Origin: Octopus vulgaris
Lineage: Eukaryota
Assembly: GCA_951406725.2 (NCBI GenBank)
Contig: OX597814.1
Span: forward strand, 68,634,001 to 68,698,000
Reading direction: 5' to 3'
DNA: 64,000 nt
Below the pieces are notes generated by a model, which was not told where the DNA came from, made no database searches, and saw only the letters and a list, made by a program, of their open reading frames with translations. Below are positions 13,740 through 54,303 of the stretch, piece after piece (the stretch's first letter is position 1; each line of letters opens with the position of its first letter). The translations under genes and the position numbers were made by a program.

Positions 13740-14540
13740 TACTAAGTAATTAAGGGTTTAGCAACGATTTGCCTCACCACACACCGAATTTAGAAATAGC
13801 AGTCAAAAGTTTTGGCTATTCTTTCTACTTATAAAGGGAGATCCCAGTAAAACCACAGCACTTAAAAAGCAAACGATGCAGGCAAAAGAGAAAGAAATGA
13901 CGAAAATCATTCTATATTAAGTCACCTACGGACGTACGTTTCGGAATTAAGTCAATTCAGTATGTCACCATCCCCCTTATTTTGGCAGCATGCTGGCGGA
14001 AGGGGGATGGTGACATACTTTCATTCACCCTTTGAATTTGATGTTACTGGTAATGGCTTACGCTCGCTCTGATACCATGAGTTGAGGTGATGTCTTCTAG
14101 TGCCTTCAAATTTAATACACAATTATTAATAATTGAGACGCAATTATTTATAATTGAAGAGTCCTACGCTGAGGAGGAAAATAGTCAGGTAAGACATAAT
14201 TATATAATTTTTATGCTCTGAATTGACTTAATTCCGAAACGTACGTCCGTAGGTGACTTAATATAGAATGATTTTCGTCATTTCTTTCTCTTTTGCCTGC
14301 GTCGTTTGCTTTTTAAGTGCTGTGGTTTTACTGGGATCTCCCTTTTAAGTAGAAAGAATAGCCAAAACTTTTTGACTGCTATTTCTAAATTCGGTGTGTG
14401 GTGAGGCAAATCGTTGCTAAACCCTTAATTACTTAGTATTACTTAAACCTTTCTTGAATGGGGCTTTTACATGCCGAACTCTACTTGGTGAAATTAATGA
14501 TTATTTCTAAATTAATTAATTTCACCCTTTATTATTGATA

Positions 14541-21133: not shown

Positions 21134-21990
<857 letters not shown>

Positions 21991-22000
<10 letters not shown>

Positions 22001-23632
22001 TGAAGGATATTCCAGTACCTTCTAGAAAGGAATTTACTTTGAAACTTATTAATAATATTAAGGATTTTGTTTCTAGAATTAAATGGAAAGCTTACTATTA
22101 TAACTATTATATATCTAATCTTAATGATAGTATGAATGATAATTTTACCTCTAATTTTAAATCCAAAAAGGAACCCCCATTTAATAGAGAATTACAAATA
22201 CTAGAAGATAATATTTGGAAGGTGGTGAAAAACATTAAATTTCATAAATACCCAAACAGAAATAATGAATATTTAAGAAATTTAGCAATTAGAATTAAAG
22301 ATATGAGAAATATGGATGGTATTATTGTACAATCTGATAAAACTAGGAATCTATATAAATTGGATGTTAAATTATATGATAACCCTTTAGAGAAAGAAAT
22401 AATTAAAAAATATAAAATTGTTCCAGATAGTAAACTTTATAATATTAATAAGGCCTCTAAATTAGTAATGATAAACTATGAATTGGATAATAAAACTGAA
22501 CCTTATGTACCTATGCACCCTAGAATTACTCTGAAAGACCATAAAGATAATTTTTATTCAGACCCTAAAGTTAGATTAATTTGTCCATGTAAATCTGACC
22601 TTGGTAAATTAAGTAAACTTATTTTAGATAAATATATTAATAAATTAAATAAACTTAATTACTTAAAATTTATGGTTTAGTAATAATAATAATACTTTGA
22701 ATTGGTTTAATAATATTAAAGATAAAAATCGTTATAAATTTATTCAAATAGATATAGATAATTACTATTCTTCTATTAATGTTTAATAAGGCCCTTATTT
22801 TTGCAATGAATAAAGTGGGAATGACATTTGAAGAAGTTAATGTAATTAAAATGGCTAGGAAATCGCTCATTAAATATAAAAATAAATTATGGGCCAGGAA
22901 AGATACTAGGGATTTTTTGGATATACCTATGGGAGCACCTGATTCTGCACAAGCTACGGATTTAGTAGGTATTTATCTTTTATCTGAACTCCAATTAGAA
23001 AATTTAAAGATAGAGGGTGGTTTATATAGGGATGACCTTCTACTAATTACTAAGAATTGCACTAATAGGAACCTAGAAGTATATAAGAAAAAACTTTATA
23101 GTTTCTTTAAAAGATATGGTTTAAGTATCACTATATATAATGAGAATTTTAATGTTAATTATTTAGATGTTAATTTTAATCTAATTACAGGTAAAACACA
23201 ACCATATCATAAACTTAATGAGAACCTTAGATATATAAATGTTAATAGTAATCACCCACCATCAATTAAAATATCGTTGATTAATAATATAAGTAAACGT
23301 ATATCATTACTTTCTTATGATATAGAGATTTTTAATAAACAAATGGCGGTGCCCCAGCATGGCCACAGCTCGTGAGCTGAAACTAGATAAAATAAAATAA
23401 AAAATAAAATATGCTCCTTATTATAATGAGGCCCTTAGAGAGGCAGGCTATAATAGTAATATTACATTTTTTATTAAAAATAAAGATAAAAGATATAACT
23501 AATAATTTTAGAGATATAAATATTAATAATAATTATAATAATTTTGTTAGTAATAGTGGTAAAAATATTAGAAATTATAAAAATAAAAATAATATAAATA
23601 AAAATAAGAATAAAAATAAAAATAAAAATAAA

Positions 23633-23685
<53 letters not shown>

Positions 23686-24550
23686 TAAAAATAAAATTAA
23701 TAACTTTAATAATTCTTTAAATGTTGATTATAAATATAAATCTGATAATAATAATAATATTAATATGATAAAGAAATATAATTACAACAATAATAATGAC
23801 AGTTTTAATAATAAGAAGGAAAATAAGAATAAAATTTGGTTAATAGTTCCTTATGGTGCTCAAGTTAAAACGAACATTATTAAAGAGATTGTAGATATTA
23901 TTGAACTATTTATTCGAGATAATCGTAAATATAAAAACATTTTCTCTAGTAATAATTTTGGAGTAGGTTATTCCACCACTAATAGTGTAGGTAACATTAT
24001 TTCTTCTTTTAACAAATTTAAACTGAATAATTTTTATAAAAATAAATTATTTAATAATACCAATAATAAAGACAAGACACTAATTAACTGTACATGTAGA
24101 GATAAATCTAAATGTCAATTAAATAATAAATGTGATACTAATGATGTAGTGTATAAATGTATAGTTACATTACATGATAAGAATATTAAGAATAATAATA
24201 ACTCAAACGCGATATATATAGGGTCCACTTCCTCTAAAATAAAATAAAGAATCGCACAACATTTGAATTCATTTAAAAATAAAAAACTTAATTAACTCCA
24301 CTGGACTTAGCAAGTACATTTGGAGACTTAAATCTCAAAAAAAAAATTAATTATAATTTATCTTGGGAAATAATTAGTAAAACTAAATCATATAATCTTC
24401 AACAATTTATTCTCTTTTTTTTTTTTTGCTAATAACGTAATTCCATGAGTATTCTTATAAACGCTGTATAAGACGTTTTTTGATCCAAAATTCTAGTTCA
24501 TTGTTTAAACCTCGCCAAGAAAAGTATGTATCTTTTTAAGACCTTCAAAT
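21991..24550 (+). pseudogene. Penelope-like element RT plus GIY-YIG ORF, disrupted
   Basis: QSDKTRNLY, RITLKDHKDNF..KVRLICPCKSDLG, IPMGAPDSAQATDLVGIY, GLYRDDLL, NYLDVNFNL, SNHPPS, CTCRDKSKCQLNNKC..VVYKC..IYIGSTS. Frameshifts, a SINE-tail insertion and an Asn-rich expansion. Confidence 0.92.
23341..23408 (+). mobile_element. SINE 3'-tail insertion interrupting the PLE ORF
   Basis: ggcggtgccccagcatggccacagc..ctgaaac plus an A-rich tail. Removing it restores FNK-YAPYYNEAL with an aataaa duplication. Confidence 0.75.
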
Positions 24551-31387: not shown

Positions 31388-32017
31388 TCGATAGATAGAT
31401 ACATAGATATATAGATAGATAGACAGATATATAGATAGATAGACAGATATATAGATAGATAGATAAAAGGAGTCAAACATCTTTTTATATAGGCAGTTCT
31501 TCATCTCAGTTGTCCAAAAGAATATCTAATCATTGCTCTACATTTAGGCATATCAATAAACGTAACAATACTGGGCTTGGTAAATTAATTTGGTATCTAA
31601 ATGATCATAATAAATATTGTGATTTGGAATGGAATATTCTCTCTATATCTTTTCTGTATGATAAAGGTAAATATTTTTGTCCGCTTTGTAACAGTGAAAT
31701 ACATTTCATCCTGTTCTCAGAGAATCCTCTTGTAAACACGTTTATAGAACGTGTTTATCGTTGCAAACATTGGCAGAAACATGCCTTTAGTTCGTATAAG
31801 TGATTTCTACAATTCTAAAAAATTTGACCTTTGACTGTCTTCTTACATTTCACTTCCACTAAATATATCTACTTCCATGCCTTTAAGCGTTATTCCTATT
31901 CACCTATCGCTATATTAGTTTTCTGCTCATTTCTTTCTTTCTCCTCCTTCTCTTTCTATAAACTACCTTTGACGTTATATCTACTAAAATGTCTTATTGG
32001 CGTGTTTTGTTTCTTTC

Positions 32018-32104
32018 TTTCCCTGATAAGAAGATTGTATTGTTTTACACCATTTTATTCTTTCTGGAATAATACCAATGTTTTATTCGAAACATATGTC
32101 AGAA
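32018..32104 (+). ncRNA. Hammerhead in 5' pLTR (G8A)
   Basis: CTGATAA-gaa...ttc-GAAA-catatg-TC-agaa; palindromic stem III. Confidence 0.7.
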
Positions 32105-32782
32105 GTAACAAGATTTGAATAGCACCTGCGTTTATTTCCCTTTCTTTATCAATATTATACAAAAACATTCCACCTTAATCTGGAGTTTCTACCTTTATAA
32201 ATAGGCTGTTACATCCTTGTTACTTGTGTGAATATTTACTACCCTGGTTACTATTTATTTTTTTCCTTGTTATTTGTAAACATTGAGAAAGTACACATAC
32301 ATTTATATACACTTCAAACAGGTTTCCATATATCCTACTAATAAAATAGTTATCACATATGGAGTTATTTGATACAAACGCTTCTCTTAAGGATTCACCT
32401 CAACCCCCAAGGAAGGTTTTCCTTAAGCAACTCATTAGTAAGACAATCTCCTTTATTAACCGTATTAGATGACTTGCCATTTTCTTCCACAATAAATACA
32501 CTAAACAGCCCTCTATCGATCTAACTTCTGAATTCAAAAAATTGTTTAAATCTAAAAACAATCCTCCACCTAACCCAAGATTGAGACAGTTTGAAGACGA
32601 TGTGAACTTCTACCTTTCACCCTTAAGGAATAAACATCAGAGATATCTTCACAATACCACCAAAGAAATTCATAGTCTGGATGGGATACTGGTTCAATCA
32701 GATAAAACAGGAAACCTATACAGGCTTACCAAGGTCAATTACCTAGAATTGCTTAGAAAAAAAATACAAAAATATTATAGGA

Positions 32783-32977
32783 TTCTTTTCTACTCTAGGT
32801 GCAAGGCCCGAAATTTTGGGGGACTCCAGTACACAACTGGTACTTAATTTATCGAACCCGAAAGGATAAAATACAAAGTCGACCTTGGCGTAATTTGAAC
32901 TCAGAACGTAAAGACAGACGAAATATCGCTAAGCATTTCGCCCGGCGTGCTAACGTTTCTGCCAGCTCGCCGCCTTA
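32783..32977 (-). mobile_element. SINE family B inserted in the PLE ORF
   Basis: Matches 17786-18165. Flanks aaaatattataggatt / aaagaattttaagatt resemble a decayed target-site duplication. Confidence 0.85.
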
Positions 32978-33052
32978 AAAGAATTTTAAGATTACCGGTA
33001 AAAGTGCAATCAGGTAAGCCAACCTCGAAGCTAAGAAAATTATGGGGAAATA

Positions 33053-34214
33053 TAAGTTAAGTTAAGTTAATTTTTTGGCTCAAAAAGCAAAAAGCAAGGC
33101 CATGTAGGGGGACATGGAGTTATGTACAGGCAGGGTGTTCATGCAAAGAGTTCAGGCCATTTCTGATCAAGAGAGACTTTGAAACGAGCGGTCGTCGGCA
33201 TCTTCACTATCTCGTCCGGCAGCTTATTCCACGGATCCGCAACCCGGACGGAGAAAGCCCCTCTCCTTAGACTGAGATGAAATCGTCGCAGATAGAGCTT
33301 TTCGGAGTGACCCCGCAGCCGACGCTCTGGAGCAGGAATGAAGAACAGCTCTTTCGAGAGGTTACACTTTCCGCTTATGATGTTGTGAGCAAGAATGAGA
33401 TCACCACGGCGTCGTCGTTTTTCTAGAGAATAAAGGTCGAGCGTCTTCAGCCTTTCTTCATAAGACAAATGCTTGAGACCAAGAACCATGCGGGTAGCCA
33501 GCTTCAGGACTCTTTCGAGATGATGTATGTCTTTGATGAGATAAGGAGAAGATGCTTGAATCCCGTACTCCAATATGGGTCTCACCAGCGTGACATAGAG
33601 CGGTAGGAATATGGCTGCTGTGAGCATTCCGAATGACCGTCGAATCAAAAACAGAACTCCGCGTGCTTTGTTGGCAGCATGGATGCACTGGGCCGAAGGC
33701 GAATAGGAAGAATTCACCAAGATTTACCTGGTCGGTCCTCTCCAGCAGCAGACGACCCGGCTCGAAATCAAGTTGAGTTGCAGGAGAGGAGCCAACAGGC
33801 AGATGAGAGCACTTTGACATGTTCAGACACAGGTCCCATTCGTTAGACCATCTCCAAACTTGGTGGAGGCATCGACGAAGATCATCTATAACACCGCGAG
33901 GAACGACCAGTTTGACATCATCGGCAAATAGAAGGGTGTGTTGCGTGAGATCGTCGGGCAAGTCATTTATGAAGACTAAAAACAGTAAGGGCCCAAGCAC
34001 TGAACCTTGAGGCACGCCACTGCTCGCACTGAAGACGTCGGACAGCGAACCATTAACTTGGACTTAGAAGGAGCGATCTGAGAGGAAGGCACCAACCGAT
34101 CGTACAATGTCCGGATGGAAACTATATGCTTGAAGCTTGACAAGTAATAGGCGGTGGTTAACCGAGTCAAAAGCTTTGGCAAAGTCCAATAAAACGATGT
34201 CAACAGCATCACCA
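33053..34214 (-). mobile_element. 5'-truncated CR1-clade LINE (relatively young) nested in the PLE
   Basis: DFAKAFDSVNH, GVPQGSVLGPLLFLVFINDLPD, FADDVKL, LVRPILEY, LEKRRRRGDLI; (TTAAC)n 3' tail; higher GC than the flanks. Confidence 0.93.
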
Positions 34215-36306
34215 TGATTTACAGATGAAGACAGAAGCCCTTGATCATAAACAACCTCGTTTTATTTTAAGAGATCACAAACACTTTTTTAATAACCCAA
34301 TCTTACGAATTATTTGTCCTTCTAGCTCTGACATCGGTGTACTTAGCAAATATATTCTAGATAAATATATTCCTATCTTAGTTAAAAAAATTAATGCTTA
34401 ATGTATGGTCTAATTCGTTCCAAGTGGTCGACTGGTTTAATTCTATTCATAACAAGAAGTGCACTAAGATTATCCTGTTTGCCACTTCCTGTTTCTATTC
34501 CTCTATCAACCCAATCGTACTCAACAAGACACTATGGCTCGCTCACAATAAAGTAGGTCTCACCAGGGATGAAATGAATGTCGTGTTAGACGCCAGAAAA
34601 TCTATTAAATTCGATAGCAAGCTTTGGTATCCGGAAAGATACACCTGACAGCTTTGATGTCACGATGGGAAGTTCTGATTCAGCACATATCGCTGATTTC
34701 GTCTATATATATATCCTTTATGAGATGGCTGATCAAGTCCCAAACATCAGTAATGATTGTCAACTCTACCTTCAAAATGCTTCTAACCAAAAATTCCAAA
34801 GAGTTAAGAATAGCTTAGTTAAATTTTTCCGAAACATGGGCTTAAGCATTTGTTTTGACGATGATATAACTAAAGCCAACTTTTTGGATATTACCCTTAA
34901 TTTGCATAATGATTCATATTTCCCATACCATAAACCCTCAACTAATTAAAAATATATTAGGTCTTTCAGTAATCACTCTAGGGCTATTGCAAAGAATTTA
35001 GTTAGGAATATTTCACTTTCTAGATACCCTACTAATGTTGATATCTTCAACGATAAAGCTGAATTTTATAACTCTGCATTACTTAAAGCAAGCTATAAAG
35101 AAAACTTCCCTATATTAACCCTATTGACATTAATTCTACCTCTATTAATGAGGACATGAAATCAAGTCATAACGATATTAACAATATTATTTCTTTTCGA
35201 ATAACAACGCCAAATTGAGTGATGTAATTCTGCAGCGTAAAGGGAGATAACCGTTATTCAAGACCCATTTTCGTTATAAAGGTACATCGAAGACTTTTAA
35301 AGATAATTACCCTAATAACAAGGTATGCACTTTCAAAAGTCTTTGGTTAATAATTCCATATGGTAATCAGATCAAATCCAACCTCCCTTACAAGTTTCGA
35401 GAAATTCAAGATATTCGATTATTAATTCACACCGAGTCAGGATAGGTTTTACTAGCATAAAAAATATTTCATAAATCATCTCTTTGCATAATAATAAGTT
35501 GTTAAAAACAAATCCACTTAATGAAAATAGTAACATTGATTTTGTTAACACTAACCATTCTTTAAGTAATAATAGCAGCAGCATTAGTGTTTCTGATGCT
35601 GACTCCAATCGCATTCATTTTCTTAGCAGTGATTCTAAGATTAGAAACTCTAATTATCACTGTAAAATTAATTCCGGTTCTGACGACTATTTTTATATAG
35701 GAAGTTCTTCATCTCAGTTGTCCAAGAGAATATCTAATCATTACTCTACATTTAGACATATCAATAGACGTAACAATACTGGGCTTCGTAAATTAATTTG
35801 GTATCTAAAGGATCCTAATAAACAATTTGATTTGGAATAGAATATTCTCTCTATATCTTTTCCGTATGATAAAGGTAAATATTTTTGTTCGCTTTATAAC
35901 AGTGAAATGTATTTCATCAGGTTCTCAGAAAATCTGCTTGTAAACACGCTTATAGAACGCGTTTATCGTTGCAAACATTCGCAAAAGTATACTTTTAGTT
36001 CGTATAAGTGATTTCTACCGTTTTAAAATATTTGACCTTTGACTGTCTTCTTACATTTCACTTCCACTAAATATATCTACTTCCATGCCTTTAATCTTTA
36101 TTCTTATTCACCTATTCTCTCCATATCTATTCACAATTAGTTTTCTGCTCATTTCTTTCTTTCACCTCCTTCTCTTTCTATAAACTACCTTTGACTTTAT
36201 ATCTACAGGCGGTTTGCTTTTAAAAAGACTTGCTAGCGCTCCCTTCATCATATACGTCGTCATCACATTCTGTTAAAAAGTCTTATTGATGTGTTTGGTT
36301 TCTTTC

Positions 36307-36389
36307 TTTCCCCGATGAGAAGATTGCATTGTTTTACACCATTTTATTCCTTCTGGAAACCAATGTTTTATTCGAAACGTAAGTCAGAA
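36307..36389 (+). ncRNA. Hammerhead in 3' pLTR (U4C)
   Basis: CCGATGA-gaa...ttc-GAAA-cgtaag-TC-agaa. Confidence 0.7.
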
Positions 36390-36785
36390 GTAACAAGATT
36401 TGAGTAACACCTGCGTTTATTTCCCTTTATTTATCAATATTACATAAAAACATTCCACCTAAACCTGGAGTTTCTACCTTTATTAGTAGGCTGTTACATC
36501 CTTGTTACTTGTGCGAATATTTACTACCCTGGTAACTATTTTTCCGTGTTATTTGTAGACATTGAAAAAAACACAGATTTATATATACATATATACACAC
36601 ATCCATACATATATACGAATATGTATATATATGTATATATATATATCTGCGTGTGTGATTATTTATGTATATATATATGAATATTTATGTATATATATAT
36701 ATGTATATATATGTACGTATGTAAATATATATGTATATATATGTGTGTATATAAATATGTATATATATATATATGTATATATGTA

Positions 36786-38961: not shown

Positions 38962-39040
38962 AATTGCATACCTCGGTTTCGGCCTTATACAAAAGAATTA
39001 CTTACATAATTCAAATGTCCATGGCTTCATCAGTACAATT
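38962..39040 (-). ncRNA. Type I hammerhead (core intact, A-C at first stem II pair)
   Basis: aattgta-CTGATGA-agcc...ggcc-GAAA-ccgagg-TA-tgcaatt; homolog of 28019-28099. Confidence 0.8.
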
Positions 39041-39080: not shown

Positions 39081-39155
<75 letters not shown>

Positions 39156-39366
39156 AATGATAAATATCAAAGTGAGTTATATACAGTAGCGGTAACACAT
39201 CGTGACGTATTTTTGCCATTTCAATATGGCTAACCCCTAAGGGTGGATGCTACTGTAGTTTTTAGCCCCAGGAGGACACACTCCTCCAGCTGGCCATAGA
39301 CACACTTTCTGTGTCCTGTCAGTATTTGCAAAGGGAAGTCATCCTTCCCGTCTTCAACATATGATA

Positions 39367-39411
39367 CACACGGACTCGAGTTTCGAGGTATTGACCTCTC
39401 GTCAGCGTGTG
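39367..39411 (-). ncRNA. Intact type I hammerhead (antisense twin)
   Basis: Exact reverse complement of 39494-39538. Confidence 0.92.
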
Positions 39412-39493
39412 ACAATCATAGTTGTCGCCCTGAGACCTCTCGTCAGCGTGTGACAATCATAGTTGTCGCCGAGAATTAGACAACTATGATTGT

Positions 39494-39538
39494 CACACGC
39501 TGACGAGAGGTCAATACCTCGAAACTCGAGTCCGTGTG
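39494..39538 (+). ncRNA. Intact minimal type I hammerhead ribozyme
   Basis: cacacg-CTGACGA-gagg-tcaata-cctc-GAAA-ctcgag-TC-cgtgtg; predicted cut after 39532. Confidence 0.93.
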
Positions 39539-39699
39539 TATCATAAGTTGAAGACGGGAAGGATGACTTCCCTTTGCAAATACTGACAGGACACAGAAAG
39601 TGTGTCTATGGCCAGCTGGAGGAGTGTGTCCTCCTGGGGCTAAAAACTACAGTAGCATCCACCCTTAGGGGTTAGCCATATTGAAATGGCAAAAATACG

Positions 39700-39746
<47 letters not shown>

Positions 39747-40139
39747 AATTTATTTGAGAACTCGTTCTGCCTTGGTTTTGCTTTTACTTCTAATATAATA
39801 TATACCTACTATAACGGAACCCTAATACGGATCCCTAGATTTAGCCTCAACTGTGAACTTGGAATCTAACGAACGACTAACTAAAGCACTTACTTGGTGT
39901 GCCTATTCATTTAGATCACAGGTGATCTAGACCCCTCATGTTCTGCATATATATATATATGTATATGTGTGTGTATATATATGCATATATATATATATTT
40001 GCATATACATATATATATATATATATATGTATGTATATATATGAATATATATATGATTATATATATATGTATATATATGTGTGTGTATGTATATATATAT
40101 ATGTTTGTACGTATGTATGTATATGTGTGTGTGTTCTTT

Positions 40140-41235: not shown

Positions 41236-41465
41236 TAATGTGACAATTATGTATAAAAAAACATTTTTGAATTCATAATATCCAATGTGACAATTATGTA
41301 AAAAACTTTTTTGAATGCATAATATTCAATGTGACAATTATGTAAAAAACTTTTTTTGAACCCATAATATCCAATGTGACAATTATGTAAAAAACTTTTT
41401 TGAATGCATAATATTCAATGTGACAATTATGTAAAAAACTTTTTTGAACCCATATTATTCAATGT
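41236..41465 (+). repeat. Minisatellite, ~44-bp unit, ~5 copies
   Basis: aatgtgacaattatgtaaaaaacttttttgaa(tg/cc)cataatat(t/c)c repeated. Confidence 0.93.
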
Positions 41466-52152: not shown

Positions 52153-53511
52153 GGCACTATATTGTCTTATCAACAACATCATGCCGCACAAGGGGGTAGT
52201 AACTTGATGGCCTTTTTTTGGACAACTTCTGATTACGTCCTCCACAGAAGTGTCACATAATAGTGAGAAGCAGTTGTTCTTTGGGGCTTCTATGGTTTCA
52301 CTGCCGCGTTCATTAGATATTTTGCAAGTATTACTCTTAAACTACAAAAGCGTAGCGTTCGATCTGTGACGTGATGTATCAGTGATGAATTCATGTAAGG
52401 CAACATATAATTATCATTCTTGTCAAGATCACGGGAAAATACACATGCTTGACCTTTTGTGATATTTTCATTGTTTCTCTTCAAAGTTTTTGCAAGATAT
52501 GTTAGCCTTGCACTTCATCATAAGAGGTCATCTGGAAATGAATGTTTCTTGAAGGAGTTCACTACCAACCCACAAGATGCTATTGACTTTATTTTTCAGG
52601 ACTTATTTTATGTATTTATATTTGTTGCCATTGTTTGGTATGTGCTGTCTGAGTAATATAATATGGATGTAGAAGGCTCTCTGTATTGATCTCAATGCAC
52701 TCCTTTCATCTTTCTTCTGAGATAGTATCTATCATTATCACAGTTTAGAGTGAGGTTTCCTGTTGATGTCCGAATGCTGTGAATTTTAATGTTAATAGCA
52801 CCAATTGCCACTAAATGTATGTAGTTGTGTGTATACATGTAGGCATGTGTGTGTCTGTATATGTATGCATTTTCGCTTGTATATAATAGCGAAGAATAAT
52901 TGGCAAGAAACCGAAAATGGCTCCATTCTCTTCTCTCTCACCGCCAAAAATGCAATGAGCTGATATAAGTATTGTCCACAAATTTGGATTTAAACTAAAC
53001 TAAAAACAAAGTTCTTAGTGTAACAGTCTGACAGCTGTGGCACTGTAAAGGTGGCAGAAGGCGAGGTGGTTGGGTACAACATCTCTAACCTTAGGAATAA
53101 CGTTCTTAGAGAAAAATTGATTTAATACTTTAATGGATGATATGTCATTCACCGAGAAGCAAACAGTGTGGCATTGATAAATTGGAGTAAGTGATACGAG
53201 ATTTATTTTGAGTAGCTCATCTAATTAAAGCATGACGGACAATTTTCTGTTTTAGACTTTTCTTTTTAACCATTTTCTGCCTTGGAAGGGAGGACAAACA
53301 CTCTCTGACTTGCCGAGTTCTTCTGGTCATTATCTGTACACATCCCAACACTCACCACCCAAATGATATATTTGGATATATATAGCATAAAACAATGATG
53401 TACATATTTTTAAAGCACTTGGATAGAGTAAATGAATTTTTCGCAATTTATTTTACTTGGAAGGACTCTAAAATGTTTTTTTTTTTACTTTTATCTTTCT
53501 TTTCTGCAGTT

Positions 53512-54303
53512 ATGGAAATTATGGCTGCCACTGAACTATCAACGAAACTACCAAAGACCGACCAGGAATATCTGCTGACCTTGGAAACAGATGTTAATGG
53601 TACATTCAATACTACTTATGATAATGGTATTCTGTATGAAGTACCAACTGGACTCGTTGTAATTTTGGCCATGCTCTATGGCGCGATTTCCATTCTCGCG
53701 GTACTTGGCAACGGACTGGTAATTTTAGTAATCGTCAAGAATAAAAGAATGCAGACAGTTACTAATCTTTTCATATCAAACTTGGCTGTTGCTGATGTAA
53801 TAACTGGCATGTTTGCAATACCCTTCCAGTTCCAGGCAGCATTATTACAACAATGGATCTTTGCCCATTTCCTTTGTTCACTTGCTCCTTTTGTTCTAAC
53901 AATGTCAGTGTCCGTTTCAGTCTTAACTCTAACAGTCATTGCAGTTGATCGATATTTTGCTGTTCTTCATCCACTCAAGCAGCGATTTACAAAACGCACT
54001 GCTGTTATTTTGGTCACCGCTATATGGATAATATGTTCGACTTCTAGTTTGCCTGAAGCATTGTTTCGTAAAGTAATTCCCATTTACCCCAAACCCCTTG
54101 TTTTCTGTACCACTGACTGGCCAACTCATCCACCAAACTTTGCTAAAGCTTATCACTTATATCTCTTATTTGCACAGTATTTGCTTCCGTTGGTAATCAT
54201 CAGTTTTGCCTATCTACGTATTGGTTGCCATATTTGGATGTTAGAAAATCCTGGCATTGCCGTTAACAACCAGAATGACATACGCTCAAGAAATAAACGA
54301 AAA
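53512..54303 (+). CDS. Coding exon (N-terminus to ICL3, TM1-TM5) of a rhodopsin-family neuropeptide GPCR, leucokinin/lymnokinin receptor-like
   Basis: GN in TM1, VTNLFISNLAVAD, PFQFQAALLQ (typical of kinin receptors), DRY, N-glycosylation sites NGT/NTT. Polypyrimidine tract plus CTGCAG acceptor ending at 53509; donor AAA|GTGAGT at 54304. TM6-7 not found in the window. Confidence 0.9.

What the first reader, a model, noticed from the sequence alone, without database searches (positions are those of the whole stretch)
39202..39703. Young 500-bp palindromic element with two perfect, oppositely oriented hammerhead ribozymes
Seen: near-identical ~225-bp arms, each with a flawless minimal HHR (cacacg-CUGACGA-gagg-ucaaua-ccuc-GAAA-cucgag-UC-cgugug). 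A third partial copy (37-bp tandem repeat, 39393-39429 and 39434-39470) lies in the spacer. No ORF. Either strand's transcript contains one HHR plus its full antisense, so it folds into a rod with ribozymes in both polarities, superficially like viroid-like RNAs. The conservative reading is a freshly inserted, 5'-truncated and inverted PLE pLTR. It is the best experimental entry point.
Basis: partly seen in the sequence, partly recalled or inferred. Interest (0 to 1): 0.85.

Follow-up and report, generated by a model that had tools for sequence, protein, structure and literature searches.

The report
Fold-back copy of a young retrozyme
This palindrome is one back-to-back insertion of a young 353-base non-coding repeat that carries a predicted self-cutting ribozyme and has hundreds of copies in the genome; its fixed, unequal ends show it was likely pasted in by a Penelope-type retrotransposon enzyme, likely from a circular RNA, and this copy itself is predicted to be a dead end.

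Summary
The palindrome is real: 225-bp arms with 1 mismatch and two identical type I hammerheads (HHR). It is not a unit of its own. It is one insertion (39152-39703, in a (TA)n tract) of a young, ORF-less, 353-bp head-to-tail repeat, with 407 exact HHR cores genome-wide and 1.2% divergence: a non-LTR retrozyme. Its centre is unique, and 35 of 35 sampled fold-backs have different centres. The 3' ends are fixed at two sites 46-50 nt apart. Of 40 fold-backs, 35 have one short and one long end, none has two alike, and two non-(TA)n sites have 12-13-bp target duplications. This is the 'tail' footprint of Penelope-like element (PLE) reverse transcriptase. Units and both arms of one insertion usually share a haplotype, which fits one circular or multimeric template. 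A sister family keeps all 14 HHR pairs. No copy is joined to an ORF. Intact Hydra-type PLEs exist but share no sequence with the unit. In this copy the antisense arm comes first on both strands and is predicted to block both ribozymes. Cleavage, circles and expression are untested. Verdict: a new member of a known class, with unusually clean mechanistic footprints.

The parts
39152..39703 (.). Whole insertion: head-to-head (fold-back) copy of the 353-bp retrozyme unit, 552 bp
   Evidence: BLAST against a natural monomer from L021
39152..39429 (-). Left arm, unit positions 297-353 then 1-221 (unit numbered from the HHR cut); ends at the long (L) 3' site
   Evidence: 99.6% over 278 nt
39152..39201 (-).
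39367..39411 (-). Type I hammerhead, minus strand; predicted cut between 39373 and 39372
   Evidence: Rfam RF00163 32.2 bits; identical to the plus copy
39430..39480 (-). 4-nt junction plus a re-copied segment, unit 287-333 (the 'third partial copy'); likely an RT slip-back; holds only the 5' half of the HHR, so no extra cut site
39479..39703 (+). Right arm, unit 300-353 then 1-171; ends at the short (S) 3' site; 2-nt microhomology at the centre
39494..39538 (+). Type I hammerhead: helix I CACACG/CGUGUG, core CUGACGA, helix II GAGG-UCAAUA-CCUC, GAAA, palindromic CUCGAG, UC; predicted cut after 39532
39081..39151 (.). Left (TA)n target tract
39704..39747 (.). Right (TA)n target tract

Best explanation
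This is one fold-back insertion of a young, non-coding 353-bp tandem repeat with a type I hammerhead (a non-LTR retrozyme), likely written into a (TA)n tract by the reverse transcriptase-endonuclease of a Penelope-like element, likely from a circular RNA, and predicted to be inactive itself. Steps: (1) tandem arrays elsewhere are transcribed and cut by hammerheads working as dimers to give 353-nt monomers, which are ligated into circles (inferred from HHR anatomy and from other retrozymes; untested here). (2) A PLE protein nicks both strands of AT-rich DNA and starts cDNA inside the RNA at two fixed sites, unit 171 and 217-221 (the ends are shown; the enzyme is inferred). (3) One nick primes at the short site and the other at the long site. 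Each cDNA runs across the HHR cut site, sometimes for several units, and stops at a variable point (variable 5' ends and one short plus one long end are shown; simultaneous two-strand priming is inferred). (4) The two cDNAs join at a few bases of microhomology, giving a head-to-head palindrome with a unique centre (junctions shown). Here both cDNAs stopped just past the HHR and the left one slipped back 37 nt, so the two opposed ribozymes are a by-product of where RT stopped.
For: 407 exact HHR cores and 594 exact short-end motifs in G000, 0 for the reversed controls. 353-bp arrays with 0-1 differences between units. 1.2% divergence over 72 complete copies. No ORF in the unit. Centre unique; 35 of 35 centres distinct. 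One short and one long end in 30 of 35 fold-backs and in 5 of 5 more picked by the end motif; none has two alike, and the other 5 have one off-site end. Exact ends pile at 171-174 and 216-221. TSDs of 12 and 13 bp at non-(TA)n sites. Haplotype markers agree in 199 of 225 within-insertion comparisons and 95 of 112 between opposite arms, against 10% between insertions; 11 insertions carry a private variant on both arms. In L028 and L013 neither arm is contained in the other. Only 1 of 40 single-orientation copies starts at the cut site. The monomer folds as a circle at z -6.5. The HHR dimer is -32.1 against 2 x -7.8 kcal/mol. A sister family (178 exact cores) keeps 14 of 14 pairs with 2 compensatory changes, including the palindrome centre, and uses the same two ends. 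PMC11167929 shows a PLE protein nicking both strands of AT-rich DNA and starting RT at two internal sites that bound the 'tail'.
Against: The autonomous partner was not found. 30 PLE loci from at least three Hydra-like families share no nucleotide similarity with either unit. The one family whose ends I mapped has a tail of about 90 nt, not 46-50; published tails are 30-40 bp. Nothing here shows cleavage, circles or expression. The monomer HHR is not the MFE fold and scores below Rfam's cut-off. Only 1 of 9 Xenopus retrozyme dimers cleaved in vitro, and the PAc hammerhead was dispensable for insertion in vitro. 17 of 112 opposite-arm comparisons disagree, and 115 of 132 private variants are not shared within an insertion. 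The covariation rests on two lineages only. Most loci were selected for holding the HHR, so crossing of the cut site is over-sampled.
Confidence: 0.8

Rival explanations
1. Same family and same PLE enzyme, but the template is an uncleaved linear multimeric transcript of an array rather than a circle; the hammerhead plays no part in insertion.
For: Uncleaved RNA was the main substrate for PAc in vitro and HHR mutants still inserted. The monomer HHR is weak. Parent arrays are internally homogeneous, so shared variants would also be inherited from them.
Against: With heavy 5' truncation, linear copying alone should shorten arrays each generation, yet young arrays of 5-7 units exist (inference). 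The HHR and its dimer palindrome are kept through compensatory change in two families. Circles are documented for 350-390-nt mollusc retrozymes.
Confidence: 0.25
2. The arm is the truncated, inverted pLTR of a protein-coding PLE.
For: The insertion style is that of PLEs. A coding Hydra-like family here also forms head-to-head HHR pairs with one short and one long end. 24 of 57 Xenopus retrozyme families match annotated TEs, nearly all PLEs, at their termini.
Against: None of 81 complete insertions is joined to a PLE ORF, and the sequence upstream of the HHR is always the same unit closing on itself. The 5' flanks of 40 single copies share only 4 pairwise matches, none a coding extension. The one pair of same-strand cores 3.25 kb apart lies in a satellite with no RT. 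Roughly two thirds of the family was not examined.
Confidence: 0.07
3. The 500-bp palindrome is a self-propagating, viroid-like rod with ribozymes in both polarities.
For: Each strand does hold one HHR, and the RNA folds as a rod.
Against: The centre is unique and all 35 centres differ. One HHR per strand cannot release a monomer. On both strands the antisense arm precedes the HHR, and all 12 HHR pairs have probability 0.0, at a cost of 57-78 kcal/mol.
Confidence: 0.01
4. The second arm arose by DNA-level fold-back copying of the first cDNA, or the palindrome is an assembly artefact.
For: In this copy the right arm is wholly contained in the left arm, and the two 5' ends are 13 nt apart. 12 of 35 centres have 5' ends within 30 nt, where about 6 are expected if uniform. 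Raw reads were not examined.
Against: 23 of 35 centres are further apart, and in L028, L013 and L041 neither arm contains the other. Fixed unequal ends and TSDs are not features of read chimeras, and the flanks are not mirrored.
Confidence: 0.1

Closest known systems
Metazoan non-LTR retrozymes (PMC7229834: Mytilus 350-390-bp and axolotl Rtz_331/Rtz_353 repeats; bioRxiv 10.64898/2026.07.22.740005)
   Same: Non-coding head-to-tail repeat of 353 bp, GC 42%, one canonical type I HHR per unit with a weak palindromic helix III, highly paired predicted circle, TSDs longer than 4 bp, PLEs in the same genome.
   Different: Expression, cleavage and circles are untested here. In the sections I read, those papers support PLE mobilisation by co-occurrence and pLTR homology. 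Here there is no homology to a sampled pLTR, but there is a direct insertion footprint: two fixed 3' ends, a one-sided tail and fold-backs.
EN+ Penelope-like elements, especially the Hydra clade (PMC8557442) and Poseidon-Ac (PMC11167929)
   Same: 5' truncation, partial tandems, inverted 5' copy, tail at one end only, (TA)n or AT-rich targets, HHR shortly upstream of the 3' end.
   Different: No RT or GIY-YIG ORF; the unit closes on itself; the tail is 46-50 nt against 30-40 published; the HHR is canonical rather than the min-HHR of most metazoan PLEs.
Non-autonomous Chlamys elements such as MRC1 (passage in PMC8557442)
   Same: Non-coding PLE passengers with multicopy head-to-tail insertions.
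   Different: They generally resemble their autonomous family at the 3' end, and most Chlamys lack canonical HHRs.
Hammerhead viroids and viroid-like rods (recalled)
   Same: Rod fold; HHRs in both polarities.
   Different: Here the rod is a perfect DNA palindrome with a unique centre, not a repeated circular genome; each polarity carries the same HHR next to its full antisense.

Membership tests
non-LTR retrozyme | Short (150-450 bp) head-to-tail tandem repeat | tested here: met
   353-bp units; 31 of 70 insertions hold a complete cut-to-cut monomer. The window copy holds only partial units.
non-LTR retrozyme | One type I HHR per unit | tested here: met
   Core and helices intact; RF00163 32.2 bits (cut-off 34), E 7e-6; 14 of 14 pairs kept across two families.
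non-LTR retrozyme | No protein coding, GC below 50% | tested here: met
   Longest stop-free frame 66 codons in a natural dimer; GC 42%.
non-LTR retrozyme | Dispersed mobile copies, TSDs longer than 4 bp where visible | tested here: met
   Best 40 hits on 13 contigs, 407 cores in all; 12- and 13-bp TSDs at L028 and L069; not readable inside (TA)n.
non-LTR retrozyme | Self-cleavage of the RNA | not testable with these tools
   Only folding energies.
non-LTR retrozyme | Expression as linear and circular RNA | not tested
   No read data were examined.
autonomous EN+ PLE (pLTR) | RT plus GIY-YIG ORF joined to the repeat | tested here: not met
   0 of 81 complete insertions; no similarity to 30 PLE loci.
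PLE-type insertion (works like) | Fixed 3' ends with a tail on one side of inverted copies | tested here: met
   35 of 40 fold-backs have one short and one long end, none two alike; tail 46-50 nt, longer than the published 30-40.
PLE-type insertion (works like) | (TA)n or AT-rich target, 5' truncation, inversion | tested here: met
   28 of 36 fold-backs have (TA)n on both sides; 5' ends scattered.
PLE min-HHR (PMC4209133) | Long helix II (7-8 bp), short helix I (4-5 bp), extra nucleotide before stem II | tested here: not met
   Helix II 4 bp, helix I 6 bp, no extra nucleotide.
viroid-like replicon | Recurring unit with one junction and ribozymes able to release a monomer in each polarity | tested here: not met
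   Unique centre; HHR pairs have probability 0.0 in the rod.

The most novel reading that the evidence does not exclude
A dimeric PLE enzyme primes both nicked target strands on one 353-nt ribozyme-made RNA circle, one subunit at each of two fixed internal sites, and rolls round it. Fold-back insertions are then the direct record of double target-primed rolling-circle reverse transcription, and this family, which has no sequence likeness to any sampled PLE, is recognised by RNA structure alone.
Probability: 0.35. Interest if true: 0.68.

Novelty: new member of a known kind. Interest (0 to 1): 0.45.

Why it matters
How animal retrozymes are mobilised is still open: the 2020 paper names PLEs as strong candidates, and the 2026 preprint says the precise mechanisms remain to be elucidated. 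This very young family shows the PLE 'tail' at single-base resolution on a non-coding ribozyme repeat, and a near-strict one-short-one-long rule with shared haplotypes across arms. That makes two questions testable with a 353-nt RNA and natural intact PLE ORFs from the same genome: do PLE enzymes copy circles, and why does the tail sit on one end only? The palindrome that was flagged is itself ordinary here: half of the sampled insertions are fold-backs.

Tried and rejected
Search for the autonomous partner. Two RT-protein searches of G000 (150 of 11,572 and 150 of 5,899 candidates scored) led to 30 long PLE loci; blastn and nhmmer found no similarity to either unit. An RF00163 search of G000 scored only 73 of 263,217 candidates and returned 6 unrelated motifs. 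Same-strand cores 3.25 kb, 1.6 kb and 1.4 kb apart proved to be copies inside larger repeats, not pLTR-ORF-pLTR. Pfam did not recognise two intact PLE ORFs and gave only sub-cut-off GIY-YIG hits on two window fragments, so 'Hydra' rests on motif matching. Expression, cleavage ends, read support and empty-site polymorphism therefore stay open. The HHR core had 0 matches in the metagenome collection. Earlier findings of this scan: nothing by sequence, words or place. Rfam miRNA matches are far below their cut-offs and reflect the perfect hairpin. A first pair count used wrong columns and is superseded. The supplement of PMC7229834 could not be read, and bioRxiv supplements are closed; either may list this family. 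L1-style twin priming (recalled) was considered: the short arm's 5' ends do not cluster at the long priming site.

Full report
Observation. The palindrome is as described: arms 39202-39426 and 39479-39703 (225 bp, one mismatch at 39359), a 52-nt spacer, an exact 37-bp duplication, no ORF, and two identical hammerheads (HHR) at 39494-39538 (+) and 39367-39411 (-). Rfam Hammerhead_1 gives 32.2 bits, E 7e-6, under its 34-bit cut-off. A relaxed HHR scan found nothing in 30 shuffled windows. The HHR has a 6-bp helix I, a 4-bp helix II and a one-pair helix III capped by a palindromic loop. That is the 'canonical' metazoan type I form said to work as a dimer, not the min-HHR of PLEs (PMC4209133, passages). 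The dimer fold is -32.1 kcal/mol against 2 x -7.8 for monomers; in the monomer, helix III has probability 0.0 and the HHR fold is 6.8 kcal/mol above the MFE.

What it belongs to. The window is G000:C1:68634001-68698000 in a 2.8-Gb animal genome; a cephalopod is my guess from recall, untested. The arm matched 40 places at 100% among the 40 candidates scored of 2,462. The 45-nt HHR core occurs exactly 407 times and the short-end motif 594 times, with 0 for reversed controls. Many copies are spaced 353 bp apart. A natural array (L021) has units with 0-1 differences, and 72 complete insertions differ by 1.2% from the commonest letter. The unit has no ORF and 42% GC, and it folds as a circle at -116.9 kcal/mol, z -6.5 against 50 shuffles. 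Extrapolating from 29 insertions on contig C1 gives roughly 250 insertions (my estimate). These are the defining features of non-LTR retrozymes (PMC7229834, parts 2-4 of 6 read; bioRxiv 10.64898/2026.07.22.740005, parts 1-3 of 5 read).

Anatomy of this copy. Numbering the unit from the HHR cut, the minus strand reads 287-333, four extra bases, 297-353, then 1-221, and ends at 39152. The plus strand reads 300-353, then 1-171, and ends at 39703. Both ends lie in (TA)n. Unit positions 222-286 are absent and each strand has one HHR, so no monomer can be released. On both strands the antisense arm precedes the ribozyme; all 12 HHR pairs have probability 0.0, and forcing the fold costs 57-78 kcal/mol. 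The copy is predicted to be a dead end that would give double-stranded RNA if transcribed.

Not a self-propagating palindrome. The 31-nt centre occurs once in the genome. After dropping two apparent segmental duplicates from 72, 35 of 70 insertions are fold-backs and all 35 centres differ, most with 0-8 nt of overlap.

The PLE footprint. 3' ends pile at unit 171-174 (53 ends) and 216-221 (27 ends), with scattered single values elsewhere; 5' ends are variable. Of 35 fold-backs, 30 have one short and one long end, 5 have one off-site end, and none has two alike; single-orientation copies end short in 28, long in 5 and elsewhere in 2. Nine further loci picked by the end motif added 5 of 5 short-plus-long fold-backs and 4 singles. 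Two non-(TA)n sites have 12- and 13-bp target duplications. PMC8557442 (passages and section 11) describes inverted 5'-truncated copies, a 30-40-bp tail often at one end only, and (TA)n targeting as PLE features. PMC11167929 (parts 1-2 of 4) shows a PLE protein, predicted to be a dimer, nicking both strands of AT-rich DNA and starting RT at two internal sites that bound the tail. I infer one nick primed at each site. The tail here is 46-50 nt, somewhat longer than published.

Template. Seven haplotype markers agree in 199 of 225 within-insertion comparisons and 95 of 112 between opposite arms, against 10% between insertions. Of 132 private variants at multiply covered sites, 17 are shared within an insertion, 14 of them on both arms (11 insertions); the other 115 are single. 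In L028, L013 and L041 neither arm contains the other, so one is not a DNA copy of the other. Only 1 of 40 single copies begins at the cut site, so cleaved linear monomers were not the usual template, although most loci were chosen for holding the HHR. A circle or an uncleaved multimer both fit. I favour the circle because long young arrays persist despite truncation and the HHR is conserved, but the PAc result keeps the linear rival alive.

Sister family. A diverged copy near L063 led to a second family of 353-358 bp (178 exact cores). It has U at core position 3, keeps 14 of 14 HHR pairs with two compensatory and two one-sided changes, and swaps the loop palindrome CUCGAG for CUAUAG (six sequences but only two lineages). 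It uses the same two ends and fold-back pattern.

Partner. No examined copy of either family is joined to a PLE ORF. The genome holds intact ORFs of 838-955 codons with the RWK-like, DKT and CxCX5C motifs given for Hydra PLEs (no phylogeny made, Pfam silent). Their repeats carry HHRs with palindromic helix III. One such family (978 exact cores) inserts in (TA)n and shows short-plus-long ends in 5 of 5 simple two-arm loci, with two complex three-HHR loci set aside, but its tail is about 90 nt. None of 30 PLE loci resembles either unit. The partner is thus a candidate class, not an identified family.

Novelty. The class is known, and PLE mobilisation has been proposed. Paper searches for 'hammerhead ribozyme' + 'octopus', 'retrozyme' + 'cephalopod', 'retrozyme' + 'rolling circle' + 'inverted' and 'Penelope' + 'tail' + 'hammerhead' (listings only) showed no description of this family or of tails on a retrozyme; unreadable supplements may contain one. 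Verdict: new member of a known kind, interest 0.45. The value lies in the family's insertion footprint, not in this palindrome. Cleavage, circles, expression and read support remain untested.

Noticed in passing
window 21255-24400 (+): Decayed Hydra-like PLE (ORF pieces 21991-22680, 22758-23375, 23408-24247) with its own 247-bp, 99% inverted repeat (21255-21501 / 21617-21863) around microsatellites; relatives with intact 838-862-codon ORFs exist in G000.
   Followed up: partly
window 38975-39040 (-): A second, unrelated HHR-like motif with a long helix II and a 7-bp helix I just left of the (TA)n tract; probably a PLE repeat remnant in the same target tract.
   Followed up: no
window 14163-14255 (+): Another HHR-like motif with a long helix II and palindromic CGTACG helix III.
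   Followed up: no
window 31459-36500 (+): Partial tandem of a third Hydra-like PLE family (GIY-YIG pieces at 31459-31803 and 35475-35840, RT piece at 34590-34949), interrupted by a minus-strand LINE-like RT fragment at 33139-34063.
   Followed up: partly
window 53386-54300 (+): Exon of a rhodopsin-family GPCR (Pfam 7tm_1, E 2.6e-46), about 14 kb from the element.
   Followed up: no
L138-L167, L174-L189: Sister retrozyme family, 353-358 bp, HHR with U at core position 3, same two 3' ends and target duplications; more diverged.
   Followed up: yes
L190-L219: Coding Hydra-like family with 978 exact HHR cores, many as head-to-head pairs 60-100 bp apart, tail about 90 nt.
   Followed up: partly
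L168:1490-1560 (-): Isolated canonical type I HHR scoring 45.5 bits, with no tandem repeat found nearby.
   Followed up: no
L012, L053: Arrays with a 5'-most segment of another haplotype or with internal re-priming, suggesting template switches between RNA molecules.
   Followed up: no
window 41237-41465: 44-bp minisatellite, about 5 copies.
   Followed up: no
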